64,000 nucleotides of DNA from a virus (IMGVR_UViG_3300020048_000009:64001-128000), one strand, 5' to 3'; shown: positions 5,379-62,289, counted from the first letter of the stretch. Numbers and translations are program-made. Notes: generated from the sequence alone by a model not told the origin.

Positions 5379-5445
5379 GTGTATTTTTCCTAATTCATCT
5401 GTTAATATATAAGTATAACAAATCAACAACCAAGGAGTATTATTA
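5379..5445 (+). promoter_or_regulatory. Early-type promoter plus conserved A-rich leader TATAAGTATAACAAATCAACAA..AAGGAG
   Basis: Similar promoter+leader recurs near 9764, 10067, 11561, 13913, 15863 and on the minus strand near 3480-3525. Confidence 0.75.
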
Positions 5446-6746
5446 TGAAACAAATTATTATCATATCAGTTATAGCTGCCAGTTGTCTTTTATATGGAGC
5501 GATAGTTGTTAACGGTCTGATTAAGATTAAAGATACTAAGAGTACTACAGAAACCATAGTAACAGATACCGTTCAATTAAAGAAATTGGAGCTAGATACC
5601 AAAGAAAAAGAGCAGCAACTAATTCAGTTGGAACTAAATAATAAATACGCCGATTTAGAAAAGGAAAAGATTAAAAAAGACCAAGAAGAGTTAGAATATA
5701 ATTTAATGGTAGAAAAGAGGAAACAGTCCGAAGAAACGCTTAAACGAGAAACCGAAGAAATTGTTGATGCTCGAAATAACGTAAGTGTTTTGTTTGCTGA
5801 TCTATATAACAGAGCAGGAAAATTAAAAATACAAATTCCTATATTGATTGATGAATTGACTTCTATAAATAGAGATATTCCTATTCTATTAGATAGAGTA
5901 TCTGAATATAAAAATACGATTGTTACTAATTCATACACTGTATTAGATGGGCGAGCAAGAATTGATTATACTAAGAAATATACTAGAACTCCTATGGAAT
6001 TTGTCGAAGTATTGAAGAAAGATAGAATAATATTGTCTATATTGATTAGGTATGATAACGTCTTATTTAAACATGAATTAGACAAATTTGTAAGAAATTT
6101 AGAATTTGAGAATAATAGGTTGAAAACGTCGTTTGCATTATTGGCAAGAAGTCGAAACATATATGGAAATAAATTATCAGATGCTAACACTTCTACAGAC
6201 GATATTAATAAGGCGTTTGAGAAAGAATTAGAAAAAATTAACAAGAGGATTGAATTTCTAAAGTTTAGATTGAGTACATTGGATGTGTCTTCAAATAATA
6301 AGGAAGCTAAAGAACAATTAAAGCGAGAAATTCAAGATGAATTAGGACACTCTGAATCTTCAGGTTTATATGCCGAAAAGAAGCGGCTTGAACAGATGTC
6401 AAAGTTGTCTGTTAACACTGCACAACATGCTGATGCATCATCTAGTGGTATATGTTCTAACTTTGATCTTCAGGAAAAGAACTTACGAGATGAATATGAA
6501 TCTAATGTTAAGAAATGTTTTGATGATATAGAACGATCTTTGTTGATGACATTGTATGTTAAGAAAGAAAATACTGAACAAATGTTAAAACATTCTAAGG
6601 ATGCTTTAGATTCTATACAGAATATTATTAGTAATTATTCTAATAAGAGTATTGATAATAAATCATTGTTAAAGATGAATAGTAAGTTTAAAGAGTTTAA
6701 AACGAATGAATTAGATGTATGTTTAGATACTGTATATAAAAAGTAA
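5445..6746 (+). CDS. Membrane-anchored coiled-coil protein
   Basis: Hydrophobic N-terminus, long E/K-rich helical body. Confidence 0.7.
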   Translation: MKQIIIISVIAASCLLYGAIVVNGLIKIKDTKSTTETIVTDTVQLKKLELDTKEKEQQLIQLELNNKYADLEKEKIKKDQEELEYNLMVEKRKQSEETLKRETEEIVDARNNVSVLFADLYNRAGKLKIQIPILIDELTSINRDIPILLDRVSEYKNTIVTNSYTVLDGRARIDYTKKYTRTPMEFVEVLKKDRIILSILIRYDNVLFKHELDKFVRNLEFENNRLKTSFALLARSRNIYGNKLSDANTSTDDINKAFEKELEKINKRIEFLKFRLSTLDVSSNNKEAKEQLKREIQDELGHSESSGLYAEKKRLEQMSKLSVNTAQHADASSSGICSNFDLQEKNLRDEYESNVKKCFDDIERSLLMTLYVKKENTEQMLKHSKDALDSIQNIISNYSNKSIDNKSLLKMNSKFKEFKTNELDVCLDTVYKK

Positions 6747-18854: not shown

Positions 18855-19330
18855 TGATTCCATCAGGGGAATGAAAAGTGGTTTAAGCCTGATGCGTCTC
18901 GACGGTTTGCTGAATATTGTTAGGGTCCTTTCTTCCTAATAATGTTTATACTGTCGAGGGTACCGATAGGTTACGGAAAATTATTTTCAAAAATATTTCA
19001 TTTTTATTTTTGGAAATGATAAATAAAATAAAATTAAGGATAAAGCAAATGTTTACGAACACATATAGAGGCAATGATAAAGGCAATACAGAACTATGTA
19101 TTACTAATGCCGGGGCTTTATCCAATCTTACAGCAGTAAATTTCCCAGAACGAATAAAGCCCGTAACCCAAGTTTAATTTAAACGGTAAAATGTTTTGGG
19201 TTACTACTAGGAGAGGTTAAGCCTAGTGCGTTCTATAAAATTTACTGTGTCTAATGCTAAACACGAAATTTTGTAGAGGTCCTCAAAAGAAATGAGCAAT
19301 TATTTCTTTAGATTTGATCTGTGACAATTG
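18855..19330 (+). ncRNA. Large structured RNA candidate (about 470 nt) leading the tRNA array
   Basis: At least eight hand-identified helices; see findings. Confidence 0.55.
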
Positions 19331-19393
19331 AATAGAAAACTTTAAATTATTTTTTGGTGGTTTTTATAACTCAAAAAACTACCCAACTTTTAT

Positions 19394-19470
19394 GAGCTCG
19401 TAGAGGAAATGGTTAACTCATGTGGTTTTCATCCACAAGATTGCCGGTTCGAATCCGGTCGGGCTTACCA
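19394..19470 (+). tRNA. trnE: tRNA-Glu(TTC)
   Basis: Cloverleaf; TGTGG-TTTTCAT-CCACA; CCA. Confidence 0.92.
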
Positions 19471-19561
19471 TATAAGCATGACGACTAGACTAGCAATGCT
19501 TTCAGCTTATAGCTAAACTAGTGACACGGCGGAGAGCACGTCGGACAATTTTATAATTTAT

Positions 19562-19647
19562 GGATAGGTGCTCCTGAATGGTAAGGGGACGGTCTTGAAA
19601 ACCGTAGGCTAACCCCACTGCACGTTCGATTCGTGTCCTATCCTCCA
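19562..19647 (+). tRNA. trnS: tRNA-Ser(TGA)
   Basis: ACGGT-CTTGAAA-ACCGT; long V-arm; CCA. Confidence 0.9.
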
Positions 19648-19694
19648 ATTTGTGGCGCGTCACGGTGTGTGTATAAGTCGCTTCGATTTATTAT

Positions 19695-19772
19695 GGGGCC
19701 ATAACTCAGTCCGGCTAGAGTGTCTCCCTTGCACGGAGAAAGTCGGGGGTTCAAATCCCTCTGGCTCCACCA
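19695..19772 (+). tRNA. trnA: tRNA-Ala(TGC)
   Basis: G3:U70; TCTCC-CTTGCAC-GGAGA; CCA. Confidence 0.95.
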
Positions 19773-19776
19773 ATTT

Positions 19777-19868
19777 GGCTGCATTCCGGATGCAGTCGGA
19801 TCAATTCACCTGATGTACTAGAGCGAGTCAGGAATTATGAAACAGTAAAATTCTGTATCGGTCTGCCA
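19777..19868 (+). ncRNA. Structured RNA ending in CCA, not a cloverleaf
   Basis: GCTGCA/TGCAGT hairpin; CGGATC/GGTCTG; CCTGA/TCAGG; ACAG/CTGT. Confidence 0.4.
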
Positions 19869-19876
19869 ATTTATGT

Positions 19877-19952
19877 AGAACGTTCGCGTAGTGGTTAGCG
19901 CACTAGACTGTCGATCTGGATTTCACGGGTTCGATTCCCGTACGTTCTGCCA
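19877..19952 (+). tRNA. trnD: tRNA-Asp(GTC)
   Basis: CTAGA-CTGTCGA-TCTGG; G73; CCA. Confidence 0.92.
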
Positions 19953-19962
19953 TTTTAATTTA

Positions 19963-20039
19963 CGGAGTGTGGAGGCAATTGGCTGCCCACGTGCCTTGGA
20001 CGCATGGTTATGTCGGATCGTTCCCGACCACTCCGACCA
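19963..20039 (+). tRNA. trnP: tRNA-Pro(TGG)
   Basis: CGGAGTG/CACTCCG; CTTGGAC loop; atypical T-loop ATCGTTC. Confidence 0.9.
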
Positions 20040-20052
20040 ATTTTTCTAGAAA

Positions 20053-20127
20053 GCCAACTTGACTGAATGGTTAAGTACCTCATTTGTAATGAGACCCATA
20101 ACGGTTCGATCCCGTTAGTTGGCTCCA
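20053..20127 (+). tRNA. trnT: tRNA-Thr(TGT)
   Basis: GCCAACT/AGTTGGC; TTTGTAA loop; CCA. Confidence 0.9.
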
Positions 20128-20220
20128 TATTTTATATACGAAAGTAATATATTCTAAAACCGGTACTTTCTTTTCAAATATGTATACCGGCTTTAATAAA
20201 TAAAATTAAAGGAATATATT

Positions 20221-20946
20221 ATGAATACAGTAATTTGTCCAATATGTGGAAAAGAATACAAACAATTAATAGCACAACATATTTTTAAACACGGTTTGAC
20301 TATTGAAGAATTTAAACTTAAATTTCCAGATTTTTATTTAGGTAGTCCGGGTATTGAAAGTACTAGAAAAGAAAAAATGGTACTTCAATATGAAAAAGAT
20401 AATATACGATGTAAACATTGTAATAAATTAATAACATCACCAAATAGAAAACATAGAATCTTTTGTAGTACTTTATGTAAAGCTACTTATTATTCTTTTA
20501 ACAAAGAGCTTGTTCAAACAAAAGGAAAACATTTTAAAAAAATCTGTTGTGCATGTAATAAAGAATATAAAGCCTTTAGAGATAATTCTAAATTTTGTTC
20601 TAATAAATGTCAACAAGAATATATTAATGTTCAAAAAATTAAAGAATGGAAAGACGCCACAGAACAGGGAAAACCTTTTCCCTATAGAAAATGGATAAGA
20701 CATTATCTTTTTAAAAAATATGATAACAAATGCTGTAAATGTGGGTGGAGTAAGATTAATCCTTTTACAGGAAATGTTCCTTTAGAACTTGAACATATTG
20801 ATGGTAATTCAAATAACAATAAAGAAGAAAATTTAGAATTGTTATGTCCCTGTTGTCATGCCTTAACTTCCACATATAAGGGTGCAAATAGAGGTAATGG
20901 AAGATTCTCTAGAAGACAAAGATACCAAGAAGGTAAATCTTATTAA
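20221..20946 (+). mobile_element. HNH homing endonuclease with Zn-finger N-terminus
   Basis: CCKCG...LELEHIDGNSNNNKEENLELLCPCCH; ATAAATA upstream. Confidence 0.88.
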
Positions 20947-20957
20947 TAAAATTTAAT

Positions 20958-21031
20958 GCGTCTGTAGCTCAATGGTCGAGCCCGTCCTTGCCAAGGATGT
21001 TATACGAGTTCAATTCTCGTCAGATGCTCCA
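20958..21031 (+). tRNA. trnG: tRNA-Gly(GCC)
   Basis: TTGCCAA loop; U73; CCA. Confidence 0.92.
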
Positions 21032-21040
21032 ATTTAAAAT

Positions 21041-21115
21041 GTTTAATATGAGCTAATGGTAAGCTTCCAGGTTTAAAGACCCAGAGTATATAGGTTCAAC
21101 TCCTATTATTAGATA
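21041..21115 (+). pseudogene. Degenerate tRNA, anticodon unresolved (TAA or TTA register)
   Basis: D-arm and ATAGG-TTCAACT-CCTAT T-arm intact; anticodon stem mismatched; no CCA. Confidence 0.55.
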
Positions 21116-21120
21116 TTTAT

Positions 21121-21195
21121 GCGTTTGTAACTCAATTGGCAGAGTGCTGGGCTTCCAACCCGGATATACGGGATCATACCCCGTCAGATGCTCCA
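21121..21195 (+). tRNA. trnG: tRNA-Gly(TCC)
   Basis: CTGGG-CTTCCAA-CCCGG; T-loop ATCATAC. Confidence 0.88.
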
Positions 21196-21201
21196 TTTAA
21201 A

Positions 21202-21275
21202 GCGATGTTAGCAAAATGGTTATGCGGCGGTCTGCAAAACCGCTTACATGTGTTCAATTCACATACATTGCTCCA
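21202..21275 (+). tRNA. trnC: tRNA-Cys(GCA)
   Basis: GCGGT-CTGCAAA-ACCGC; U73. Confidence 0.92.
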
Positions 21276-21285
21276 TTTTATTTAT

Positions 21286-21361
21286 GCTCTCTTATTTCAG
21301 TGGCTAGAATGCTTCCTTTACACGGAAGAGGTCAGGAGTTCGAATCTCTTAGGGAGTACCA
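21286..21361 (+). tRNA. trnV: tRNA-Val(TAC)
   Basis: CTTCC-TTTACAC-GGAAG; CCA. Confidence 0.92.
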
Positions 21362-21367
21362 TTTTTT

Positions 21368-21444
21368 CGAAGTATAACTCAGTTGGTTAGAGTACCTGTC
21401 TGATACACAGAATGTCGGTGGTTCGAATCCATCTACTTCGACCA
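21368..21444 (+). tRNA. trnI: tRNA-Ile(GAT)
   Basis: CTGATAC loop; CGAAGTA/TACTTCG; CCA. Confidence 0.92.
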
Positions 21445-21451
21445 TTTTATT

Positions 21452-21535
21452 GGGACTGTGGCGTAATGGCAGACGCGCTGGTTTTAGACACCAGTGGAGA
21501 AATCCGTGAAGGTTCAAGTCCTTTCAGTCCCACCA
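21452..21535 (+). tRNA. trnL: tRNA-Leu(TAG)
   Basis: CTGGT-TTTAGAC-ACCAG; V-arm GGA-GAAA-TCC; A73. Confidence 0.92.
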
Positions 21536-21564
21536 GTTTTGTTTCATTAAAGCATATAATATCA

Positions 21565-21636
21565 GTGTATAAAAGCCAATGAATATACTACTATATTAAT
21601 ATCAATTACGCAATTGATACTGTTCTTTGAATAACA
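21565..21636 (+). promoter_or_regulatory. Promoter + hairpin + boxA-like site
   Basis: GTGTAT-N18-TACTAT; ATCAATT-acgc-AATTGAT; TGTTCTTTGAATAAC at 21621. Confidence 0.65.
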
Positions 21637-21646
21637 ATTTTTAAAT

Positions 21647-21735
21647 CGCAGGGTGGCGTAATTGGCAGCCGCAGCGGACTTAAAATCCGCTGGGTGGTAA
21701 CACCCGTGAGGGTTCGAGTCCCTCCCTTGCGACCA
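21647..21735 (+). tRNA. trnL: tRNA-Leu(TAA)
   Basis: GCGGA-CTTAAAA-TCCGC; long V-arm; CCA. Confidence 0.92.
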
Positions 21736-21994
21736 TTGATCCTTAGTTAGAAGATTGTGTTCTGTCAGCCCATCAAGATAGACGTTTGAGATCATGCCTC
21801 TTCTGGAACAAGTATATAAACTTTAAGCCTTTGAGCGGACAGGTTTATATTAAGTGAAATCCTTGATGGTCGGCGGTGTATTCCAGTCTTTTGTTTTAGT
21901 ATGATATTAATGTTTTCGTTACCTGACCGTTGGACTAAGTGCACTTCGTAAGAAGGCTCCAATCAATCAGCTTCTCCATTAACCAGCAGCATAT

Positions 21995-22071
21995 AGGCGT
22001 GTAGCTCAGCTGGTTAGAGCGGGATCCTTATAAGGTCTAGGTCGCTGGTTCAACTCCAGCCACGCCTACCA
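21995..22071 (+). tRNA. trnI: tRNA-Ile(TAT)
   Basis: GGATC-CTTATAA-GGTCT; AGGCGTG/CACGCCT; A73. Confidence 0.85.
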
Positions 22072-22088
22072 TTTTTTAGAAAGTAATT

Positions 22089-22238
22089 ATGCTTTATTAT
22101 TGGACAAGAGTTTATAATACAGGTGCTGCCCATTATTGGGAAGTAGAAAGTGAAGAAGCTTTACTTATCGCTGCAAAAGAAAAGTATGGTGAATCACTTT
22201 TTGATTATGGAATGACAACTCAAAAGAAAACAAAGTAA
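22089..22238 (+). CDS. 49-aa hypothetical protein
   Basis: Hand-translated ORF between tRNAs. Confidence 0.45.
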   Translation: MLYYWTRVYNTGAAHYWEVESEEALLIAAKEKYGESLFDYGMTTQKKTK

Positions 22239-22250
22239 ACAATTTTTAAT

Positions 22251-22332
22251 GGGAATGTATCTCCCCCGCCTTCTAAGCGGACGTTAAAAGAGTAATTGGA
22301 GTATGCAGGTTCGATCCCTGTCTTTCCCGCCA
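22251..22332 (+). ncRNA. Rearranged tRNA-Arg(TCT)-like RNA lacking a positional D-arm
   Basis: GGGAATG/CTTTCCC-G-CCA; CCGC-CTTCTAA-GCGG; GCAGG-TTCGATC-CCTGT. Confidence 0.7.
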
Positions 22333-22417
22333 TTTTAGCTAAGAGTAGTAAATATTTAATTTACTTATATATTTAAGCTGCGCTTTTAATAAATAAAATT
22401 AAGGGTATAACTTAAAT

Positions 22418-22924
22418 ATGAAAAATAAATGTCATAAATGTAATGTAGATATTCCAAACAGGGTTAAAATAGATAACTGTTGGAAAACAATTAACCATAG
22501 AAAATTTTGTTTAATCTGTTCACCGTGGGGTAAACATAATACTAAAAGCGTGGATCCTTCTAAAAGAACGCTTTCAGAAAAAGAAAGACATTCCTGGAAA
22601 AATTTAACAGATAAACAAAAAACATGTCATAAAACATCACAACATAAGAGAGCCGTTAAGCGTAAGGTTGAACTTATTAATATGCGAGGTGGGAAGTGTG
22701 AAAGATGTGGTTATGATAAATGTATTGATGTATTTCATTTTCATCATATAGATCCATCGTTAAAAACCATGAACATGGGATTAAATTCTCTATGGTGTAA
22801 ATCATGGGAAAAGATTTTACAGGAATTTGAAAATTGTAAAGTATATTGTTCTAATTGCCACATGGAAGTGCATTATGAATTAAAAAATCCTGATAATAAA
22901 CAATGTACTTTAATTTCAAAATAA
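22418..22924 (+). mobile_element. HNH homing endonuclease
   Basis: GGKCERCG...FHFHHIDP...CKVYCSNCHMEVH; ATAAATA upstream. Confidence 0.85.
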
Positions 22925-22936
22925 TATGATTAGCCA

Positions 22937-23007
22937 GTGTATAAAAAGAAGAGATTATCATATTATATATCTATCAAGTATGTACTTGAGCATGTTCTTT
23001 GACAATT
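22937..23007 (+). promoter_or_regulatory. Promoter + hairpin + boxA-like site
   Basis: GTGTAT-N18-TATTAT; TCAAGT-atgt-ACTTGA; TGTTCTTTGACAATT at 22993. Confidence 0.65.
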
Positions 23008-23029
23008 AATAGCAAATGATTTTTTTAAT

Positions 23030-23114
23030 GGAAGCGTGGCCGAACGGCTAGGCATCGGACTTTTAATCCGAGGGAGAAATCCTAACGCAGGTTCGACCCC
23101 TGTCGCTTCTACCA
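23030..23114 (+). tRNA. tRNA with Lys(TTT) anticodon on a class II long-V-arm body
   Basis: TCGGA-CTTTTAA-TCCGA; V-arm GGA-GAAA-TCC; 3-bp D-stem; A73. Confidence 0.85.
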
Positions 23115-23132
23115 TCTTTTTAGTTTTCAAAT

Positions 23133-23206
23133 TGTCCCATAGTGTAATGGCAGCACAGCACCCTTTGACGGTGTTTGTATTGGTTCAAGTCCAGTTGGGA
23201 CAACCA
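23133..23206 (+). tRNA. trnQ: tRNA-Gln(TTG)
   Basis: GCACC-CTTTGAC-GGTGT; T1:A72. Confidence 0.92.
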
Positions 23207-23208
23207 AT

Positions 23209-23282
23209 ATTCCCATGTTGTAAAGGATGCATGCGGCGCTACGAACGCTTCGGTTGGAGTTCGAATCTCTATGGGAATACCA
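23209..23282 (+). tRNA. trnR: tRNA-Arg(ACG)
   Basis: CTACGAA loop; ATTCCCA/TGGGAAT; CCA. Confidence 0.85.
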
Positions 23283-23287
23283 TTTTA

Positions 23288-23346
23288 AAGACGCAAACAG
23301 CAATTCAAATAAAAATTCACTGTTAATGAAAAAAAAAACGCGTCTT
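23288..23346 (+). ncRNA. Anticodon-stem-loop mimic (Asn GTT) in an AAGACGC/GCGTCTT stem
   Basis: TTCA-CTGTTAA-TGAA at 23316-23330. Confidence 0.5.
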
Positions 23347-23354
23347 GTTTTTAT

Positions 23355-23429
23355 AGTAGAGTAGGCAAGTGGTAATCCGCCTCCCTGTTAAGGAGGACAG
23401 CGCTGGTTCGATCCCAGCCTCTACTGCCA
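23355..23429 (+). tRNA. trnN: tRNA-Asn(GTT)
   Basis: CCTCC-CTGTTAA-GGAGG; G73. Confidence 0.92.
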
Positions 23430-23432
23430 CTT

Positions 23433-23555
23433 TGGGAACAGATGGTTAGCGCCATTTGGCATATTTATTCATGTAGTATGCCTAACCCATTTATATTTTT
23501 GATAAATAAAATAGAGGTTACGCTAAGAACCTCTTTAAAATAAAGGTAAAATAAT
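23433..23555 (+). ncRNA. Endonuclease-leader structured RNA, copy 2
   Basis: Loops TTAGCG (23446-23451) and CGCTAA (23521-23526). Confidence 0.7.
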
Positions 23556-24236
23556 ATGATTAATAAATTAGATGAATCATGGAAGCAAGTAAACGGTTTA
23601 TATAAATGTCCAATATGTAGTAAAGAGTATTCTAAAAAAGGAATTTGTTCGCATATCTTTAGATCACATACAAAAGACGGTAAATATAATTCTTTTAAAG
23701 ATAATAACAGATTATATACTTCATCGTGGAATAAAGGTTTAATAAAAGAAACAGATCTTAGAATCAAGAAATCTGGTGAGAAACTTAAAGAAAGTCTTAA
23801 CTCTGGTAAAGTAATACCACCACAAACAGGAAAACCTATTGCTCCTGAAATAAAAGCTAAAATATCCAATACGATGAAGATTGCTCATAAAGAAGGAAGA
23901 GCGTGGAATATTGGAAAGTCTAGATGGAATAACAAAGCTTCATATCCAGAAGAATTCTTTATGAAGGTTATTGAAAATGAATTTGAGGATAAGAATTATA
24001 TAAGAGAATTTAATGTTGGTATTTATTCTATAGATTTTGCATGGACCGATAAAAAGTTAGCTATAGAAATAGACGGACAACAGCATAAACGATTTGAAGA
24101 ATATAAACAGAGAGATCTTCGGAAAGATGAATGTTTATTAGAGAATGGATGGAAAGTTCTAAGAATTTTATGGATTGATATGTATAAGGATCCACACAAG
24201 TGGATTAAAATTGCTAAAGATTTTATACATAATTAA
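23556..24236 (+). mobile_element. Putative homing endonuclease, DUF559/Vsr-like nuclease with C2H2- and NUMOD-like N-terminus
   Basis: CPICSK..HIFRSH; YSIDFAWTDKKLAIEIDGQQH..RD..L..NGWKVLRI. Confidence 0.82.
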
Positions 24237-24249
24237 GAATTTTATTAAT

Positions 24250-24325
24250 GCGATTGTAGCTCAGTAGGCAGAGCGTCGGACTCTTAATCCGAAGCGCGTG
24301 GGATCATAGCCCTCCAGTCGTACCA
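24250..24325 (+). tRNA. trnK: tRNA-Lys(CTT)
   Basis: TCGGA-CTCTTAA-TCCGA; T-loop ATCATAG. Confidence 0.88.
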
Positions 24326-24363
24326 TTTTGATGTACAAGATCAGATAGACATGAGAATTTTAT

Positions 24364-24437
24364 TGCGCGGTTGAGGAGAGGCCCCTCTGCAGGCTCATAA
24401 CCTGCCTACGCCGGTTCGAATCCGGCCTGCGCAACCA
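24364..24437 (+). tRNA. trnM: tRNA-Met(CAT)
   Basis: GCAGG-CTCATAA-CCTGC; CCA; initiator vs elongator unresolved. Confidence 0.88.
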
Positions 24438-24446
24438 ATTTAACAA

Positions 24447-24597
24447 CACGGCGTGAGGAAAGAACTTGTTCTATGATTCTTAATTCGATTCTAGTAAGAT
24501 AGTACTGTCTGAACGAGGATGTTATTAAGCGGAGAACAGAAATCCTACCGGAAACATGTCCGGAAATCGCAGGTATCGAATCCTGTCGCCGTAACCA
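24447..24597 (+). ncRNA. 151-nt initiator-tRNA-like RNA with 83-nt D-loop insertion
   Basis: C1:A72 mismatch; AGGA/TCCT D-stem; CCGGA-AACATG-TCCGG; T-arm; A-CCA. Confidence 0.65.
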
Positions 24598-24603
24598 ATT
24601 TTA

Positions 24604-24679
24604 GGAGTTTTGTTGTAGATGGTTCGCAAAACGGTCTGAAAAACCGAAGGATAGGGTTCGATCCCCTGAAACTCCACCA
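24604..24679 (+). tRNA. trnF: tRNA-Phe(GAA)
   Basis: CTGAAAA loop; GGAGTTT/AAACTCC. Confidence 0.9.
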
Positions 24680-24690
24680 TTTTATTTTCT

Positions 24691-24778
24691 GGTAGTTTAT
24701 TCCGTAGGTAGTCTCGGGGCGCACTGTAAATGCGCTGGCTAATACCCTAAGGTAGTGCAACTCTATCAACTACCACCA
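24691..24778 (+). tRNA. trnY: tRNA-Tyr(GTA)
   Basis: GCGCA-CTGTAAA-TGCGC; long V-arm; T-loop TGCAACT. Confidence 0.88.
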
Positions 24779-24783
24779 GCTTT

Positions 24784-24920
24784 AAATAAGGACAGATGGT
24801 TAGCGCCATTTGGATGTTTTTCATATGACACGCCTAACTTATTTAATTATTTTTTCATATTTTTTGATAAATAAAATAGAGGTTACGCTAAGAACCTCTT
24901 AAAAATAAAGGTAAAATAAT
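24784..24920 (+). ncRNA. Endonuclease-leader structured RNA, copy 3
   Basis: AAATAAG/CTTATTT closing stem; loops TTAGCG and CGCTAA (24886-24891). Confidence 0.7.
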
Positions 24921-25457
24921 ATGAGTAAAAAATTAATTGATCGCATCGGTGCTGATAAAATCATTGAAGTCTGCAAATCTGCAAAAACATTTAAAGAAGC
25001 ATGTGAAAAACTTAACTGTGGTTATAGATATTTAATGACAGCAGCCGTTGAATTAAATGTTTTCGATGAGTTAAAGTCTAGATCTAAAGAATTTGCACAT
25101 AAATTTAAAAAGGCTGATGGTTCAAGATTATGGTTGATTAAAACTAATACGGGACAAGGCTTTACATCATACAGAACTGATACTAAAATTTGGTGTGAAG
25201 AACTTTTTAAAGGAAATCATACATCAACCGCTGTTAGAATTAAAACACATTTAATTAATGCTGGGTATAAAGAAGATCATTGTGAATGCTGTGGTATTAA
25301 TGAATGGAACAATAAGCCAATAAGTTTACAATTACATCATATAGATGGAAATTCTAGAAACAATCAGTTAGATAATTTAAAAATTCTTTGTCCTAATTGT
25401 CACGTTCAAACAGATAATTATGGTTCTAAGAATGCTCGAAATAAAGAGCGCGAGTAA
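24921..25457 (+). mobile_element. HNH homing endonuclease
   Basis: CECCG...LQLHHIDGNSRNNQLDNLKILCPNCH. Confidence 0.88.
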
Positions 25458-25473
25458 AGATTCCACCATTTTA

Positions 25474-25545
25474 GGGCAGCATGAAGGTACAAGCTCTACC
25501 TATAACTTAGGTACCTGGTGAGTTCAATTCTCATCCTGTCCACCA
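25474..25545 (+). pseudogene. Degenerate tRNA-like RNA with CCA
   Basis: GGGCAG/CTGTCC; GTGAG-TTCAATT-CTCAT; non-canonical D and anticodon regions. Confidence 0.55.
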
Positions 25546-25551
25546 TTTTAT

Positions 25552-25628
25552 GTAGCAGTAATTCAAGAGATAGAAATGCTGGGGTAATTCCTGGCGTGTT
25601 GTTGGTAAAAATCCAGCCTGCTACACCA
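25552..25628 (+). pseudogene. Degenerate tRNA-like RNA with CCA
   Basis: Perfect GTAGCAG/CTGCTAC-A-CCA; T-loop TAAAAAT; no valid anticodon loop. Confidence 0.55.
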
Positions 25629-25630
25629 CT

Positions 25631-26064
25631 TTCAGTTGTAATTCAAGCCATGTCCGATAGGGTACTTCTATATGAGCGCGCCCTATTTGTAAAGAATGAG
25701 ATAGACGAGAGTCGGCCGTAAGAGAATCCTCTGCAGGGGTTCAAAGACTAAAGACTCAGGAGGAACGTGTTACGTGAAATCCTCATTGACAAAGATCCCT
25801 AATGAACGGGAATGATAGTAAGTTAGTAAGAGAGATATTTGTGATTATGCCTTTAGTGTAACGGTTAGCACGTGGGATAATTCCCTTAGATCGGTTCGAC
25901 TCCGCAGGAAAAAACAAATCACATACAGAACCTTGTGAAATCCTTATATGGTACCTATCCAACTGAGCCATTCCAAGAATCCCCAGAGACGGTGTAGTAG
26001 GGATATACGAAGCAACACATTCATAGGCCTATCGGTGTTGTTGTAGATAGGACAAGACCGTTTC
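25631..26064 (+). ncRNA. Large structured RNA (about 430 nt) with embedded tRNA-like domain and 3' pseudoknots
   Basis: TTCAGTTG/CAACTGAG; GATAGGGTAC/GTACCTATC; GAGACGG/CCGTTTC; CCTATC/GATAGG; GCAACAC/GTGTTGT. Confidence 0.65.
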
Positions 26065-26069
26065 ATTTT

Positions 26070-26206
26070 TATACTGAGTAATGTAGAGAATTGGCAAATC
26101 AGCGGGCCAGTAGGCAAGTCTTAGAGATGCTGAAATCCGGCGGAATAACATTAGCTGGTAAGAGGTTATTCATTTATGGGTTCGAGTCCCATCATTATTC
26201 AGTGTA
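26070..26206 (+). ncRNA. tRNA-like RNA on a 14-bp closing stem with expanded anticodon region, no CCA
   Basis: CTGAGTAATG/CATTATTCAG; AATTGG D-loop-like; ATGGG-TTCGAGT-CCCAT. Confidence 0.55.
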
Positions 26207-26237
26207 TTTCTTTTTAAATTTAGTTATAATATAATTT

Positions 26238-26546
26238 ATGAAAACCAACAAATTTGTTTTTGAAATCAGTGTTGAAGGCCCAGGTTATAATGAAGAAAAT
26301 GTAGAAGAACTTTATGGTGAAGGTGCCATGTATAATCCAGATTTTTCAGAACACTCTGTAGTCATGGATGAGGTCTATGAAATCTTTAAGGATGCATTAA
26401 TGCAGCGAATGGAATTTAAAATGAATGCATTAATTAAACCTGTTCCAAATGAAGCAGCACAAAAAGCTTATCTAACTCATGTTGATGCAGCAATTGAGCT
26501 TTATAGAAAAGTTCAAGGAAGTTTAAAATTCGTTAGAAAAGAATAA
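26238..26546 (+). CDS. Hypothetical protein
   Basis: Behind GTGTAT-N17-TATAAT promoter at 26202. Confidence 0.65.
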   Translation: MKTNKFVFEISVEGPGYNEENVEELYGEGAMYNPDFSEHSVVMDEVYEIFKDALMQRMEFKMNALIKPVPNEAAQKAYLTHVDAAIELYRKVQGSLKFVRKE

Positions 26547-26552
26547 TTTATG

Positions 26553-26684
26553 GGGGTTGTTGGCTGAATAGGCATAAGCAGGGCACAAGAGGCCTGACAA
26601 AGCATAAAGGCATGTAGAAAACCGGCCGGGAATATTCTATATGTACTGTGCAGCGTGGAGGTTCGATTCCTTCCAGCCCCACCA
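26553..26684 (+). ncRNA. 132-nt tRNA-like RNA with giant variable arm
   Basis: GGGGTTG/CAGCCCC-A-CCA; class II D-arm; CATGTAGAA/TTCTATATG helix; GGAGG-TTCGATT-CCTTC. Confidence 0.65.
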
Positions 26685-26690
26685 ATTTAT

Positions 26691-26765
26691 ATAGCAGTAG
26701 TTCAATTGGCAGAATGGCGATCTCCAAAAGCGATGAAGTGGGTTCGATTCCTGCACATCCTGCCA
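26691..26765 (+). pseudogene. Degenerate tRNA-Trp(CCA)
   Basis: CTCCAAA loop, D and T arms present; acceptor strands ATAGCAG/ACATCCT do not pair. Confidence 0.6.
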
Positions 26766-26770
26766 TTTAT

Positions 26771-26849
26771 GGTAGTATTAGCTTAGTCTGGCCTAAAGCT
26801 ACGGACCGTGACTCCGTGATCGTGGGTTCGAATCCCATATACTTCCCCA
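26771..26849 (+). tRNA. trnH: tRNA-His(GTG)
   Basis: G-1:C73; ACGGA-CCGTGAC-TCCGT (C33). Confidence 0.85.
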
Positions 26850-26855
26850 AAATTA

Positions 26856-26922
26856 ATTCATAATTCGATCCCACTATTTGATAAATAAAATAAATATCAA
26901 ATAGTGGGATCGAATTATGAAT
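26856..26922 (+). repeat. Perfect 28-bp inverted repeat enclosing a late promoter and burying the next ATG
   Basis: ATTCATAATTCGATCCCACTATTTGATA / TATCAAATAGTGGGATCGAATTATGAAT. Confidence 0.9.
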
Positions 26923-27858
26923 ACTTTATTAATAAGACATTGTGAAAATTGTGGAATAGAACATGATGGAACATATGGATCTGGAAGATTTTGTTCTAAA
27001 GAATGCGCTAGAAGTTTTTCTTCTAAATTAAATACAAACATACGAAATGAAAAAATTTCAAAAACATTAAAAAATAAACATATTAGAGAAACTATATGTA
27101 AAAAATGTGGAACTATTGTATATACAAAGGGTTCTAGTCCAAATGTATGTTGTGACAAATGTAGACAAAAAAGAAAAAGCAATACCCCCTATTGTAATAG
27201 ATGTGGTGCCGAACGTGGAAAATGTAAATATCCATCTTTATGTAAAAAAAAGTTAAAATTATTTGATGGATTAGAAAAATATTTTGGATTTGATAAAACA
27301 AGTTTTGGGTCGAAAAGATATTATGAAGAAATCTTTAGAATAAAAGCAATGATAGAAGAAGATTATTATGAAAATAATAACTCAACAGTTGAATTATGTA
27401 AAAAATATAATCATACAGCATGTGGTAGTTTTATAAGAATACTAAAAAGCATTGATATTGTATTAAGAAATTTAAAAGAATCTTCATTACTGGCATATAA
27501 AACTGGTAGATCTGTTATATCAATAGATAATAGTACTCAATATAAACATGGGTGGCATACTGCATGGGATAACACACAAATATTTTATAGATCTTCATAT
27601 GAACTTGATTATGCTGAAAAATTAGATGAGCAAAAAGTAAAATATGACGTCGAAGCTTTAAGAATATCTTATTTTGATACTCAAAAATGTATAGAAAGAA
27701 CGGCAATTCCTGATTTTTATCTTCCTGAAACTAATACTATAGTTGAAATAAAATCTTCATGGACATATAATGAACAGAATATGAATGATAAAATTAAAGC
27801 TTATAAGAAGCATGGTTATAATTTTAAACTAATTTTAGATCATAAGGAAGTTGTTTAA
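26917..27858 (+). mobile_element. Putative homing endonuclease, TnsA-like PD-(D/E)xK domain with Zn-finger N-terminus
   Basis: CENCG..GSGRFCSKEC; FYRSSYELDYA...PDFYLPETNTIVEIKS. Confidence 0.75.
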
Positions 27859-27927
27859 AAAATTTATTTTTTTGCGTATAATTATAGTATACAAATAAAT
27901 TGTAATACAAATAAGGAAAACAATATT

Positions 27928-28068
27928 ATGTTAAAGAGAGATAAGCTCGGTAGATTCGTTGCTGCTAAGAAAGCACCTAAGGCTAAGCCCTGTGCACCAT
28001 GTAAACCTTCCAAGAAGGATTCATGTAAACCTTGCGCACCTAAGAAAACAAAGAAATGTTGTAAGTAA
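27928..28068 (+). CDS. 46-aa Lys/Cys/Pro-rich peptide
   Basis: MLKRDKLGRFVAAKKAPKAKPCAPCKPSKKDSCKPCAPKKTKKCCK; AAGGA RBS. Confidence 0.6.
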   Translation: MLKRDKLGRFVAAKKAPKAKPCAPCKPSKKDSCKPCAPKKTKKCCK

Positions 28069-28331
28069 TTTTCAACGTTTAGATAAATAAAAATATCAAA
28101 CCTGCGGTGCCTCTATTCGGGTGGATTTATTCCTTCGTACTGAATATGCATAATTCCGCGGGTATTTTATTTCAGGTGTACTTTTTAAATAAATCCGTGT
28201 ATTATATAATCATAACAAGTTAAATGGAGATGAGACAATGGATATTCCTTTTGCAGAATTAATGATTAAAGCTGGAGAATTGAACAAAGATACTTTCGTA
28301 ATCGATGTTGATACTCTTAGGAGATGGTTAG

Positions 28332-28547
28332 ATGAACAAAATCAAAAAGAATCAAACACAATGTAATTGTGAATCCCAATGTAATTGGGAAGTTCAAGGA
28401 ATGTCTCCTTCTCCCATACAGAATAAAACAATTGTTTTTAGAATGTCATGTGATGGTAAATACTTTACGACAACTACAAATGAAGTATCAACCCTCACCA
28501 TCTGCCCTCACTGTAATCAACCCATAACTCACCTAAACAAGGTTTAA
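28332..28547 (+). CDS. Zn-ribbon hypothetical protein
   Basis: CPHC near C-terminus. Confidence 0.55.
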   Translation: MNKIKKNQTQCNCESQCNWEVQGMSPSPIQNKTIVFRMSCDGKYFTTTTNEVSTLTICPHCNQPITHLNKV

Positions 28548-28551
28548 CATT

Positions 28552-28983
28552 ATGCGTACACAAATAGAAGGTATAAAATACGAGATGCCTGATGGCTATT
28601 ATCGCGTGACTAATAAGCTCGATATGGCCAGACGTGATGATTTAGTTTGGGGATCTTGTGAAGACCTATGGTCTAAACCTACAGGAAGACTTGATCTTGT
28701 TGGTAATTATTATGCGGTTATCCGTAAAGGTGTGAAACCTCCAAAAGTAATTAAAGAGAATTCTAAACCACCAGCTTATATAAAAGTTACTTCAGTTGAT
28801 GATATCAAAAAATATAATCTTAAAGAAGGTTCTAAGATTATTATAAACGATTTGAAATATACAATCGTTAAAATCCATTCAGCTGGTAATTATGGTTGGG
28901 GATTGTTAAGCCAACAATTTGCTATTTGTCTTATCACATCAAAACTTGAGCTTTTAATAAGCGCTTATACTCTTGGTATATAA
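28552..28983 (+). CDS. Hypothetical protein
   Basis: Co-oriented ORF. Confidence 0.65.
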   Translation: MRTQIEGIKYEMPDGYYRVTNKLDMARRDDLVWGSCEDLWSKPTGRLDLVGNYYAVIRKGVKPPKVIKENSKPPAYIKVTSVDDIKKYNLKEGSKIIINDLKYTIVKIHSAGNYGWGLLSQQFAICLITSKLELLISAYTLGI

Positions 28984-28989
28984 TTTAAT

Positions 28990-29081
28990 GGAAGTGTGGC
29001 CGAGCCTGGTTTATGGCGGCTGATTACTAATCAGCAGGGGCCTTAAAACCCCCGTAGGTTCAAATCCTATCGCTTCCTCCA
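28990..29081 (+). tRNA. trnS: tRNA-Ser(ACT)
   Basis: GCTGA-TTACTAA-TCAGC; V-arm GGGG/CCCC; U73; followed by terminator. Confidence 0.85.
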
Positions 29082-29090
29082 ATTTCTAAG

Positions 29091-29125
29091 AAATCAATAT
29101 CTTAATCGATGTTGATTTTTTTTTA
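29091..29125 (+). terminator. Intrinsic terminator closing the RNA island
   Basis: AAATCAATATC-ttaatc-GATGTTGATTT plus T-run. Confidence 0.7.
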
Positions 29126-29246
29126 TCTTTTCTAAATTATTTTAGTATACATACTATAAAATATTATTTTCTAATTTTCTTAAAATCACGGTATATTTAC
29201 GCAGTCTTTTTTATTATAATATTTATATTGTTTAACCGATAAGGAT

Positions 29247-29678
29247 TTGTCGATGGAATGTAAATACACAAAAGGCAATATTGTTCAAGTATCCCTCATA
29301 CCAAAGATGTATACTTGGTGTGAGCCTTTTTATAAAAACAACATAAAAGTTTTTATAGAAGTTACAGAGGCCGTAGCAGATAATGGCGGACATGAAGGTT
29401 ATTATAGGGGAATTTTAATACTTGAAAATGTAAATACAGAAACCTTTAAGAATCTTTATCGTTGGGATAGAACACTAGAACAATGGCTTGCCTATATATT
29501 GCCCTTATCTGTTAATGGTGAAAAATATGCAAGTCGAAATAAAGAAGATCCATACCCCTGGTCTTTTGTTGAAAATGAATTAGTCCTTAACCGAATTACC
29601 AAAGCTCTTCCTGAAGATATTGATTATGATAATATGCTGCCAGAAGCATATACTGCTTCTGTCTCAGATACATTATAA
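29247..29678 (+). CDS. DALIP-motif family protein 1
   Basis: C-term LPEDIDYDNMLPEAY. Confidence 0.75.
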   Translation: MSMECKYTKGNIVQVSLIPKMYTWCEPFYKNNIKVFIEVTEAVADNGGHEGYYRGILILENVNTETFKNLYRWDRTLEQWLAYILPLSVNGEKYASRNKEDPYPWSFVENELVLNRITKALPEDIDYDNMLPEAYTASVSDTL

Positions 29679-29686
29679 GGATTATT

Positions 29687-30046
29687 ATGAAACATAAATT
29701 TGACGTTGGTGATACAGTAGATATTATTTTTATAGATCCACCTGTTGGTGATGGTTATCGTTATGCTAAACCTTATCATTGGCAAGTATGGGCAGATAAA
29801 CAAAAGGTTAGACTATATGGTAAAATTACAAAGCGCGATGAAGAAAATGGATATAGAGTAGATATCTATAGATATGATACTGGAAATTTATGGAGAGTAG
29901 AGGCATTTTTTCAAGATTCTTGGAGTGATGCTTATAACTGGCGTTTGTATGAACATGAAGTAGTATCACAAGTACCCATTTGTGTTTTACCAGAAAATAT
30001 TGATTATGATGATTTTCTTCCAGCATCAATTGTAAACGTATTTTAA
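29687..30046 (+). CDS. DALIP-motif family protein 2
   Basis: KFDVGDTV; C-term LPENIDYDDFLPASI. Confidence 0.75.
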   Translation: MKHKFDVGDTVDIIFIDPPVGDGYRYAKPYHWQVWADKQKVRLYGKITKRDEENGYRVDIYRYDTGNLWRVEAFFQDSWSDAYNWRLYEHEVVSQVPICVLPENIDYDDFLPASIVNVF

Positions 30047-62225: not shown

Positions 62226-62289
62226 GGGTATGTAACTCAATTGGTAGAGTCATTGTGTATTGCAGGTTCGACCCCTGTCATATCCATCA
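62226..62289 (+). ncRNA. tRNA-like RNA lacking the anticodon arm
   Basis: GGGTATG/CATATCC; ACTC-AATTGGTA-GAGT; GCAGG-TTCGACC-CCTGT; only 11 nt between D and T arms; ends ATCA. Confidence 0.65.

What the first reader, a model, noticed from the sequence alone, without database searches (positions are those of the whole stretch)
22251..22332. Topologically rearranged tRNA-Arg(UCU)-like RNA
Seen: acceptor and T-arm are canonical with G73-CCA. The anticodon hairpin CCGC-CTTCTAA-GCGG comes only ~8 nt after the acceptor, with no D-arm. A D-loop-like TAATTGG lies 3' of the anticodon arm, and its GGAG can pair with CTCC at positions ~10-14. The array has no canonical Arg(TCT), although AGA is common in this AT-rich genome. 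Inference: a non-circularly permuted tRNA that may rebuild the L-shape. Similar rearranged tRNA-like motifs may already be catalogued, which I cannot verify here.
Basis: partly seen in the sequence, partly recalled or inferred. Interest (0 to 1): 0.7.

Follow-up and report, generated by a model that had tools for sequence, protein, structure and literature searches.

The report
Phage arginine tRNA with rewired D-arm
This 79-base gene (plus CCA) in a phage tRNA cluster is very probably a working arginine (AGA) tRNA whose D-arm pieces lie on either side of the anticodon arm instead of in front of it, a non-cloverleaf layout shared by many unrelated phages, missed by tRNA finders and not found in the literature I could search.

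Summary
The feature at 22251-22332 is real. It belongs to a conserved, phage-restricted family: 56 distinct sequences collected here and 148 matching phage records, from E. coli, Klebsiella, Vibrio and Streptomyces phages.

Acceptor, anticodon and T stems all covary. The anticodon is UCU in 50 of 56 sequences; the others are Arg CCU, UCG or GCG, plus one CAU.

C11-N12-N13 pairs with the triplet just 5' of UAAUUGG (window 22261-22263 with 22290-22292): 108 of 108 cells pair, with four pair types at one position. The invariant GGAG is not the partner; that pairing breaks in all 9 variants.

Helix 2, a U.U layer, an A.C layer and the anticodon stem together give 10 stacked layers, as in a normal D/anticodon stack. 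UAAUUGGA keeps A14, G18, G19 and the arginine identity base A20.

The host phage is 211 kb and 30% GC. AGA makes up 59% of its Arg codons, and it has no canonical tRNA-Arg(UCU).

Best reading: a functional AGA decoder charged by the host ArgRS (confidence about 0.8). Why it is rewired is unknown.

This scan has met the same family several times on other DNA. I found no published description.

The parts
22251..22257 (+). Acceptor stem 5' strand (GGGAAUG)
   Evidence: Pairs with 22322-22328. All 7 pairs covary across 36 sequences, 98.8% of cells paired.
22258..22260 (+). U8 A9 connector and U10; U10 faces U at 22293
   Evidence: U, A, U are invariant in 36 of 36 type-1 sequences. U10/U43 is U.U in 36 of 36.
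22261..22263 (+). Helix 2, 5' strand (CUC)
   Evidence: Pairs with 22290-22292, 108 of 108 cells paired. Pair 12:41 is UA27 AU4 GC4 CG1; pair 13:40 is CG30 UA4 GC2. These pairs are among the top 13 mutual-information pairs.
22264..22264 (+). C, equivalent of position 26, facing A at 22289
   Evidence: Column 14 against column 39: A.C 24, C.A 4, C-G 4, A-U 2, U.G 1, A.A 1.
22265..22281 (+). Anticodon arm: stem CCCGC/GCGGA (first pair C.A), loop CUUCUAA, anticodon UCU at 22272-22274
   Evidence: All 5 stem pairs covary. The loop was TCT in every hit of a scan that allowed any anticodon.
22282..22289 (+). Linker CGUUAAAA: 7-nt bulge CGUUAAA plus A22289, the 44-like partner of C22264
   Evidence: CGUUAA is present in 33 of 36 type-1 sequences. 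Other subtypes have 2-12 nt here.
22290..22293 (+). Helix 2, 3' strand (GAG) plus U
   Evidence: Covaries with 22261-22263.
22294..22301 (+). D-loop-like AAUUGGAG (A14 R15 Y16 Y17 G18 G19 A20 equivalents)
   Evidence: Nearly invariant. A follows GG in 55 of 55 rewired tRNAs with an Arg anticodon and U follows GG in the single CAU member. In canonical tRNAs of the same loci, A follows GG in 6 of 6 Arg but only 9 of 171 non-Arg.
22302..22304 (+). UAU, variable-loop-like connector to the T stem
   Evidence: Invariant in type 1. It is 4-8 nt in other subtypes, and longest (8 nt) in the subtype with the shortest (2-nt) linker.
22305..22321 (+). T arm GCAGG-UUCGAUC-CCUGU
   Evidence: Canonical UUCRANY loop. 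Stem is 98.9% paired, with 3 pairs changed on both sides.
22322..22332 (+). Acceptor 3' strand CUUUCCC, discriminator G, encoded CCA
   Evidence: Discriminator is G 29, A 20, U 6, C 1 across 56 sequences; CCA is encoded in 35 of 56.
22418..22924 (+). 168-aa ORF with an HNH-type Cys/His motif, 89 nt downstream (neighbour; not shown to be part of the RNA's function)
   Evidence: ORF found, with no Pfam hit at E<=0.01. Related HNH ORFs lie within 1.5 kb of 7 of 62 family copies.

Best explanation
The element is a functional elongator tRNA-Arg(UCU) with a non-cloverleaf connectivity.

Order along the chain:
- acceptor 5' strand, then U8 A9 U
- the 5' strand of a short helix (CUC)
- one nucleotide
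- a complete anticodon arm
- a 7-nt bulge (CGUUAAN) plus one nucleotide
- the 3' strand of the short helix (GAG) and U
- a D-loop-like AAUUGGAG
- UAU
- T arm, acceptor 3' strand, G73, CCA

Shown here: the four helices, the invariant UCU anticodon loop, and the conserved U8, GG, A-after-GG and T-loop nucleotides.

Inferred:
- The short helix (U.U plus 3 bp plus an A.C layer) stacks on the 5-bp anticodon stem. This gives the same 10 layers as the D stem plus 26.44 plus anticodon stem of an ordinary tRNA.
- The strand leaving the top of that helix carries A14, G18 and G19 to the T loop, so the L-shape and the anticodon-to-CCA distance are kept.
- Geometrically this equals an ordinary tRNA in which segment 10-21 has been moved into the variable loop.
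- The RNA is transcribed with the tRNA array, trimmed by RNase P, and charged by the host ArgRS through A20, C35, U36 and G73.
- It supplies the AGA decoder for an AT-rich phage whose commonest Arg codon is AGA.

Why the D domain is rewired is not explained.
For: 1. Family and covariation.
- 148 phage records match at 80-90% identity, across N4-sized coliphages, phi92/rV5-like phages, 121Q-like jumbo phages, Klebsiella Sugarland/KB57, Streptomyces Stanimal/Yaboi and a Vibrio phage.
- I collected 56 distinct sequences.
- On 36 gap-free sequences, 94.3% of cells pair against 65% in shuffles, and 18 of 21 pairs show changes on both sides. Sliding the register drops pairing to 35-47%.
- The top 13 mutual-information pairs are exactly the model's helix pairs.

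2. Anticodon. A pattern scan that left the anticodon free returned only TCT.

3. Arginine identity.
- A follows GG in 55 of 55 rewired tRNAs with Arg anticodons, and U follows GG in the one CAU member.
- In canonical tRNAs of the same loci this A occurs in 6 of 6 Arg and 9 of 171 non-Arg.
- The discriminator is G or A in 49 of 56.
- A20, C35, U36 and A/G73 as ArgRS identity elements is established knowledge for E. coli.

4. It fills the slot.
- The window's own genome has Arg(acg) but no canonical Arg(tct), while AGA is 59% of Arg codons.
- Only 1 of 16 loci with at least 10 tRNAs also carries a canonical Arg(tct).
- In a 185-kb record rated 100% complete by CheckV, the 26 ARAGORN calls include no Arg; 25 are ordinary non-Arg tRNAs and one ('Val(aac)') is a miscall of the rewired GCG gene. 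Its only Arg tRNAs are four rewired ones: CCU, UCU, UCG and GCG.

5. Resemblance to a canonical tRNA. A profile HMM built from 189 canonical tRNAs scores the native order at 13.7 bits. With segment 10-21 moved back it scores 27.0 bits, close to the canonical mean of 28.3. Shuffled-segment controls score 21.1-21.9 bits.

6. Position. The gene lies co-oriented inside the tRNA array between tRNA-Ile(tat) and tRNA-Lys.
Against: - There are no expression, processing, aminoacylation or decoding data for any member. Function is inferred from conservation.
- RNAalifold predicts only the acceptor, anticodon and T stems, not helix 2.
- The Rfam tRNA score is below threshold.
- Two loci, L017 and L032, carry both a canonical Arg(tct) and the rewired gene, so it is not simply a substitute.
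- The 3D claims (10-layer stack, elbow contact) are geometric inference; no RNA 3D tool was available.
- The sequences are related, so cell counts overstate the number of independent events. At least 8 distinct helix-2 variants exist.
Confidence: 0.8

Rival explanations
1. It is a tRNA-shaped decoy or sponge rather than a decoder. In this reading it mimics tRNA-Arg to soak up or mislead a host tRNA-targeting effector or another tRNA-binding factor, and is not used on the ribosome.
For: - The rewired class is almost exclusively arginine: 55 of 56 sequences.
- It co-exists with a canonical Arg(tct) in L017 and L032.
- Standard finders do not recognise it.
- tRNA-Arg-specific nucleases such as colicin D exist (established knowledge).
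Against: - A decoy would not need 7-bp acceptor covariation, G/A73, an encoded CCA, a perfect 7-nt anticodon loop with U33 and A37, an A20 equivalent, and a preserved 10-layer stack all together.
- It replaces, rather than accompanies, canonical Arg tRNAs in most arrays. In one complete 185-kb phage, rewired genes are the only Arg tRNAs, for four anticodons.
- No colicin D-like domain was found in five records.
Confidence: 0.08
2. The function is as in the best explanation, but the structure is the one the first reader drew. CUCC (22261-22264) pairs with GGAG (22298-22301), so that UAAUU lies inside the loop and the GG is paired.
For: The pairing gives 4 Watson-Crick pairs in this particular sequence. 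The ViennaRNA centroid structure contains it.
Against: - GGAG is invariant while its proposed partners vary.
- Pair 12:50 is broken in 9 of 9 variants. Pair 13:49 never changes on both sides. Pair 14:48 pairs in 9 of 36. The helix is 73.6% paired, against 100% for 11-13:40-42.
- Other subtypes have 5' strands CAAG, CCC or CGA that cannot pair with GGAG but do pair with the triplet before UAAUUGG.
Confidence: 0.04
3. It is a decaying tRNA gene, a rearranged pseudogene left by recombination or homing-endonuclease activity in the array.
For: - HNH ORFs and tRNA fragments do occur next to some copies (L050, L026).
- ARAGORN and the Rfam threshold both reject it.
Against: A pseudogene would not be conserved at 80-90% identity across phages of Proteobacteria, Actinobacteria and others with compensatory substitutions in every helix and an invariant anticodon loop.
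Confidence: 0.02

Closest known systems
Canonical bacterial and phage tRNA-Arg(UCU) (class I cloverleaf, Rfam RF00005; e.g. E. coli argU, or the canonical copies at L032:1522-1598 and L017:4106-4178)
   Same: - 7-bp acceptor stem, G/A73 and CCA.
- 5-bp anticodon stem with loop CUUCUAA.
- 5-bp T stem with a UUCRANY loop.
- U8, G18 G19 and A20.
- Length 72-73 nt once the 7-nt bulge is discounted.
- Sits in tRNA arrays.
   Different: There is no D hairpin 5' of the anticodon arm. The two strands of the D-stem-like helix flank the anticodon arm, and the D-loop-like sequence follows the 3' strand and runs straight into the T stem. A conserved CGUUAA bulge is added. ARAGORN does not call it and the Rfam score is below the gathering threshold.
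D-arm-lacking mitochondrial tRNAs (e.g. metazoan mt tRNA-Ser(AGY); nematode and mite minimal tRNAs, PMC2797822)
   Same: There is no D hairpin before the anticodon arm, and the acceptor stem runs almost directly into the anticodon domain. These read AGN-type codons in the mammalian case (from my own knowledge).
   Different: Those tRNAs have lost the D-loop GG and the elbow contact, and they are short. This one keeps a full D-loop-like sequence, a covarying D-stem-like helix and a canonical T loop, and is longer than a standard tRNA. Its context is phage and bacterial, not organellar.
Circularly permuted tRNA genes of Cyanidioschyzon merolae and other algae (PMC3978253)
   Same: The gene order of tRNA parts differs from the textbook order.
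   Different: There the 3' half precedes the 5' half, and processing through a circular intermediate yields a normal cloverleaf. Here the 5' and 3' ends are in the normal place. The permutation is internal (non-circular), with no sign of a processing route back to a cloverleaf.
Viral tRNA-like structures (TLS) of plant RNA viruses
   Same: Non-cloverleaf connectivity that still mimics the tRNA L-shape and can be aminoacylated (established knowledge; reviewed in PMC13191261).
   Different: TLS are 3' ends of RNA genomes with pseudoknotted acceptor arms, and they do not decode. This is a free-standing gene with a normal acceptor stem and a normal anticodon arm.

Membership tests
Canonical tRNA (Rfam RF00005 / cloverleaf) | 7-bp acceptor stem, discriminator and 3' CCA | tested here: met
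   6 of 7 pairs in the window copy, G73, CCA encoded. All 7 pairs covary.
Canonical tRNA (Rfam RF00005 / cloverleaf) | T arm: 5-bp stem with a 7-nt UUCRANY loop | tested here: met
   GCAGG-UUCGAUC-CCUGU; 98.9% paired across the family.
Canonical tRNA (Rfam RF00005 / cloverleaf) | Anticodon arm: 5-bp stem, 7-nt loop with U33 and purine 37 | tested here: met
   Loop CUUCUAA. The stem covaries at all 5 pairs; the first pair is C.A in the window copy.
Canonical tRNA (Rfam RF00005 / cloverleaf) | D hairpin (stem 10-13/22-25 enclosing the D loop) located between position 9 and the anticodon arm | tested here: not met
   Only 7 nt lie between the acceptor and anticodon stems. The Rfam alignment deletes the D arm. 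The helix strands flank the anticodon arm.
Canonical tRNA (Rfam RF00005 / cloverleaf) | Score at or above Rfam gathering threshold; detection by ARAGORN | tested here: not met
   25.6 bits against 29. ARAGORN called the element in 0 of 46 loci, except for one miscall as Val(aac) in G001.
tRNA-Arg identity set (E. coli-type ArgRS) | A20 in the D loop, C35, U36/G36, A/G73 | tested here: met
   At the sequence level only. GG-A is present in 55 of 55 Arg-anticodon members against 9 of 171 canonical non-Arg tRNAs. C35 and U36 are invariant. Position 73 is G or A in 49 of 56. Charging itself is not testable with these tools.
Rewired (internally permuted) phage tRNA-Arg family, as defined here | Helix between nt 11-13 and the triplet immediately 5' of UAAUUGG, enclosing the anticodon arm; a GG-A D-loop-like sequence between that helix and the T stem | tested here: met
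   The window copy scores 91.5 bits on model R1, but it is one of the model's own training sequences. Independent support comes from the covariation.
Circularly permuted tRNA gene | 3' half encoded upstream of the 5' half, joined through a circular intermediate | tested here: not met
   The acceptor 5' strand is at the 5' end and the acceptor 3' strand plus CCA at the 3' end of one contiguous 82-nt stretch.
D-armless mitochondrial-type tRNA | Loss of the D stem and of G18 G19 elbow nucleotides | tested here: not met
   A covarying D-stem-like helix and an invariant UGGA are present.

The most novel reading that the evidence does not exclude
The rewiring is adaptive rather than a frozen accident. 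Moving half of the D arm behind the anticodon arm would keep recognition by ArgRS, EF-Tu and the ribosome. At the same time it would make the tRNA invisible to, or uncleavable by, some factor that recognises the canonical D-arm/anticodon-arm geometry of tRNA-Arg, either a host defence nuclease or a phage-made weapon against host tRNA-Arg. Phages could then keep translating AGA/CGN codons while ordinary tRNA-Arg is destroyed. The near-exclusive restriction of the design to arginine tRNAs, and a complete 185-kb phage whose only Arg tRNAs (four anticodons) are all rewired, are what one would expect under this reading.
Probability: 0.2. Interest if true: 0.9.

Novelty: new variant of a known kind. 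Interest (0 to 1): 0.8.

Why it matters
The cloverleaf connectivity is treated as universal for cytoplasmic and bacterial-type tRNAs. The known exceptions either lose arms (mitochondria) or are permuted genes that are processed back to a cloverleaf.

A widespread, strongly conserved tRNA whose mature chain threads the L-shaped core in a different order would show that the tRNA fold tolerates rewiring in nature. It would provide a natural test bed for what RNase P, ArgRS, modification enzymes, EF-Tu and the ribosome really read.

It would also matter for annotation. Phage tRNA censuses and codon-usage arguments systematically miss an AGA decoder, which is unannotated or labelled "tRNA-OTHER" in most of the phage records I inspected.

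If the rewiring turns out to be a counter-defence, it would add a new principle to the phage-host conflict over tRNAs.

Tried and rejected
- **ARAGORN on un-permuted sequences.** Moving the segment back in silico gave 32 of 32 calls as tRNA-Arg(tct), against 0 of 32 for the native order. A shuffled 12-nt segment also gave 26-31 of 32 calls. The test only shows that spacing matters, so I do not count it as evidence. The scored HMM version is the usable one.
- **RNAalifold on A3.** It predicts only three stems and neither candidate for helix 2.
- **Single-sequence MFE.** Not better than shuffles.
- **Mis-specified pattern.** My first degenerate pattern was off by one base and found nothing. It was corrected.
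- **Genome-contig scan.** Of 25 hits, 21 are chance matches in coding DNA, including the three isolate genomes. Only 4 MAG contigs carry the element.
- **Wide-gap pattern scan.** The scan with CTTCTAN{8,20}GTAATTGGAG returned more than 120 loci, most of them chance. Only 17 matches reached E<=1e-5 with the covariance model.
- **HNH link.** Homologues of the window's or L050's HNH ORF lie within 1.5 kb of only 7 of 62 copies. In L050 the gene destroyed by the HNH cassette was itself a rewired copy. Endonuclease immunity therefore does not explain the rewiring.
- **Phage-encoded ArgRS or colicin D.** No ArgRS (PF00750) or colicin D-like domain (PF11429) in five carrier records.
- **Promoter and terminator scan.** Counts at chance level.
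- **Remnants of a destroyed canonical tRNA-Arg.** No tRNA remnant in 22880-23030 by eye, and no partial tRNA match on either side of the element in the Rfam scan of 19000-30000.
- **Literature.** Eight full-text searches, including the literal 13-mer, found no description.
- **Evolutionary route.** I could not decide between one transposition of segment 10-21 and a swap of the D loop with the anticodon arm. The helix strands read NCUC...GAGU, as in a normal D stem in the normal order. Geometry instead requires the 5' strand to take the spatial place of 22-25.

Full report
**1. What is in the window**

The window is part of an IMG/VR virus record of 211,678 bp with 29.8% G+C. The window covers bases 64001-128000 of that record. 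A co-oriented tRNA array runs from 19394 to 29081, with 24 ARAGORN calls. None of those calls covers 22251-22332.

- acceptor GGGAAUG/CUUUCCC with one U.U mismatch
- G73 and an encoded CCA
- T arm GCAGG-UUCGAUC-CCUGU
- a complete anticodon hairpin with loop CUUCUAA, starting only 7 nt after the acceptor stem
- UAAUUGGAG after the anticodon arm

Rfam's tRNA model aligns the acceptor, anticodon and T arms. It has to delete the D arm and insert 20 nt in the variable region. The score is 25.6 bits, below the gathering score of 29.

**2. It is a family, and it is restricted to phages**

blastn against 50,697 phage records found the 65-76-nt core at 80-90% identity in 148 records. These come from very different lineages:
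- 70-78-kb coliphages (Bas93/94, FH3, TH42)
- phi92- and rV5-like myoviruses
- 121Q-like jumbo phages
- Klebsiella Sugarland- and KB57-like phages
- Streptomyces phages Stanimal and Yaboi
- a Vibrio phage

In these records it is almost always unannotated. It is occasionally labelled "tRNA-OTHER", or mis-called as Leu or Val.

Pattern scans of IMG/VR added many more copies. In all I collected 56 distinct sequences.

A scan of one genome for each of 185,579 prokaryotic species gave 25 pattern hits. Only 4 are real, and all 4 lie on MAG contigs with phage-like tRNA arrays. The hits in isolate genomes are chance matches inside coding DNA. ARAGORN recognised none of the copies in 46 loci.

**3. Structure from covariation**

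Alignment A3 holds 36 gap-free type-1 sequences.
- Acceptor, anticodon and T stems are 95-99% paired, and 15 of their 17 pairs show changes on both sides.
- The informative part is the fourth helix. Columns 11-13 pair with columns 40-42 (window 22261-22263 with 22290-22292) in 108 of 108 cells. Pair 12:41 is UA 27, AU 4, GC 4, CG 1. Pair 13:40 is CG 30, UA 4, GC 2 (same result on A2).
- The search patterns imposed no complementarity there.
- At least eight helix variants occur, all complementary: CUC/GAG, CGC/GCG, CAC/GUG, CCC/GGG, CUUC/GAAG, CAGC/GCUG, CAUC/GAUG and CUUA/UAAG.
GGAG never changes, 12:50 is broken in all 9 variants, and the helix is only 73.6% paired.
- Column 14 faces column 39: A.C 24, C.A 4, C-G 4, A-U 2, U.G 1, A.A 1. 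U10 faces U43 in 36 of 36.
- The 13 highest mutual-information column pairs are exactly the helix pairs of this model.

Two results do not help. RNAalifold does not predict this short helix. Single-sequence folding is uninformative. The case for helix 2 therefore rests on covariation.

**4. Geometric reading (inference)**

U10.U43, three Watson-Crick pairs and the 14.39 layer sit directly on the 5-bp anticodon stem. That makes 10 layers, the same as D stem (4) plus 26.44 (1) plus anticodon stem (5) in an ordinary tRNA.

The strand that rises to the top of this helix (GAGU) continues into AAUUGGAG. This matches the canonical D-loop consensus A14 R15 Y16 Y17 G18 G19 plus A20. It then passes through UAU into the T stem.

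In space the molecule can therefore be described as an ordinary 72-73-nt tRNA in which segment 10-21 has been moved into the variable loop. U8-A9 joins the top of the helix directly, and a conserved 7-nt bulge (CGUUAAN) is added between the anticodon stem and the helix.

Three observations are consistent with this:
- Other subtypes keep the 10 layers but trade linker length against the length of the connector to the T stem: 8+3, 4+5 and 2+8 nt.
- One subtype pairs the start of the linker (GUC) with the end of that connector (GAC), as a variable-arm stem would.
- A profile HMM of 189 canonical tRNAs from the same loci scores the native order at 13.7 bits and the un-permuted order at 27.0 bits (canonical mean 28.3). 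Shuffled-segment controls score 21.1-21.9 bits.

The cruder ARAGORN version of this last test was not discriminating. I could not test 3D structure.

**5. Identity and function**

A scan that allowed any anticodon returned only UCU. A covariance model built from A3 then found the same topology with CCU, UCG and GCG, all arginine, and once with CAU.

The base after GG is A in 55 of 55 members with an Arg anticodon and U in the CAU member. In canonical tRNAs of the same loci that A occurs in 6 of 6 Arg and 9 of 171 non-Arg tRNAs. The discriminator is G or A in 49 of 56, and CCA is encoded in 35 of 56. These are the known ArgRS identity elements (A20, C35, U36, A/G73; established knowledge for E. 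coli).

The gene fills a gap in the tRNA set:
- The window's genome has Arg(acg) but no canonical Arg(tct), while AGA is 59% of its Arg codons.
- Among 16 loci with at least 10 tRNAs, only one also has a canonical Arg(tct).
- In a 185-kb record that CheckV rates complete, none of the 26 ARAGORN calls is an Arg tRNA; 25 are ordinary non-Arg tRNAs and one ('Val(aac)') is a miscall of the rewired GCG gene. The only Arg tRNAs are four rewired genes, for CCU, UCU, UCG and GCG. The one other tRNA-like hit in that genome carries a 59-nt insert and no Arg anticodon.
- No carrier record examined encodes an ArgRS, so the host enzyme must do the charging.

I therefore read the element as a working AGA decoder, with confidence about 0.8. 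Nothing here shows expression or charging directly.

**6. Why it is rewired is an open question**

An HNH-type ORF lies 89 nt downstream in the window. HNH genes also sit beside some other copies, but only 7 of 62 by homology.

In L050 a type-1 copy has been split in its T loop by about 770 nt. That insert carries an HNH gene and a type-2 rewired tRNA-Arg. This shows that these genes move with homing endonucleases. It also shows that rewiring does not protect against that endonuclease.

No colicin D-like nuclease was found in the carrier genomes. The near-restriction to arginine suggests a link either to ArgRS recognition or to something that targets tRNA-Arg. I give an adaptive "evasion" explanation about 0.2.

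**7. Comparison with what is known**

The element is not in Rfam as a family of its own. Eight full-text searches, one using the literal conserved 13-mer, found no description.

The nearest known things each differ in a defining feature:
- canonical tRNA-Arg(UCU)
- D-armless mitochondrial tRNAs (PMC2797822)
- circularly permuted tRNA genes that are processed back to a cloverleaf (PMC3978253)
- viral tRNA-like structures

The details are in the membership table.

Earlier notes of this scan describe the same family on at least seven other genomes and reach the same reading. I had already reached mine and stated it. The leads on other anticodons and on the HNH link I checked myself.

**8. Verdict**

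This is a new structural variant of tRNA, widespread in phages, unannotated and apparently undescribed. Function is inferred strongly but not demonstrated.

Noticed in passing
window 62226-62286 (+): A 61-nt tRNA-like gene with a canonical acceptor stem, D arm (ACUC-AAUUGGUA-GAGU) and T arm. The T arm is almost identical to that of the rewired tRNA-Arg. Only 7 nt stand where the 17-nt anticodon arm should be. Rfam tRNA scores it at 41.1 bits, but ARAGORN does not call it. No blastn match in the phage collection.
   Followed up: partly
window 23030-23114 (+): An 85-nt tRNA of class-II length (long variable region) with anticodon UUU (Lys). This is an unusual body for a lysine anticodon. Its T arm again resembles that of the rewired tRNA-Arg.
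   Followed up: no
window 21041-21115 and 28990-29081 (+): ARAGORN calls tRNAs with the odd anticodons AAA ('Phe') and ACU ('Ser', 92 nt). The Rfam scores are 38.7 and 49.3 bits.
   Followed up: no
G000:C1:140246-140322 (outside the window): The same phage genome encodes a suppressor-type tRNA with anticodon CUA, which reads UAG. This may point to stop-codon reassignment in part of the genome.
   Followed up: no
L050:1458-2311: A type-1 rewired tRNA-Arg gene is split within its T loop by about 770 nt. The insert holds a reverse-strand HNH endonuclease ORF (1570-2076, Pfam HNH_2), a shorter-linker type-2 rewired tRNA-Arg (2103-2179, Rfam tRNA 33.8 bits) and a further tRNA 3' fragment. The 3' remnant of the split gene, with CCA, lies at about 2290-2311.
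   Followed up: partly
L026 (element 5' part at 6138-6176, minus strand; canonical tRNA-Arg(tct) at 5435-5512): A type-1 copy is truncated right after GUAAUU, with a canonical tRNA-Arg(tct) about 630 nt downstream on the same strand. It looks like a replaced or destroyed copy.
   Followed up: partly
L127:954-2851 = G001:C1:44436-46333: One complete 185-kb phage carries four rewired tRNA-Arg genes (CCU, UCU, UCG, GCG) and no canonical tRNA-Arg. ARAGORN mis-calls the GCG one as tRNA-Val(aac). In this subtype UAGC at positions 8-11 could also pair with GCUG after the GGA, so its core may differ from type 1.
   Followed up: partly
L141:4321-4397: The same rewired topology with anticodon CAU (Met or Ile2) and U instead of A after GG. 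The design is therefore not strictly limited to arginine.
   Followed up: no
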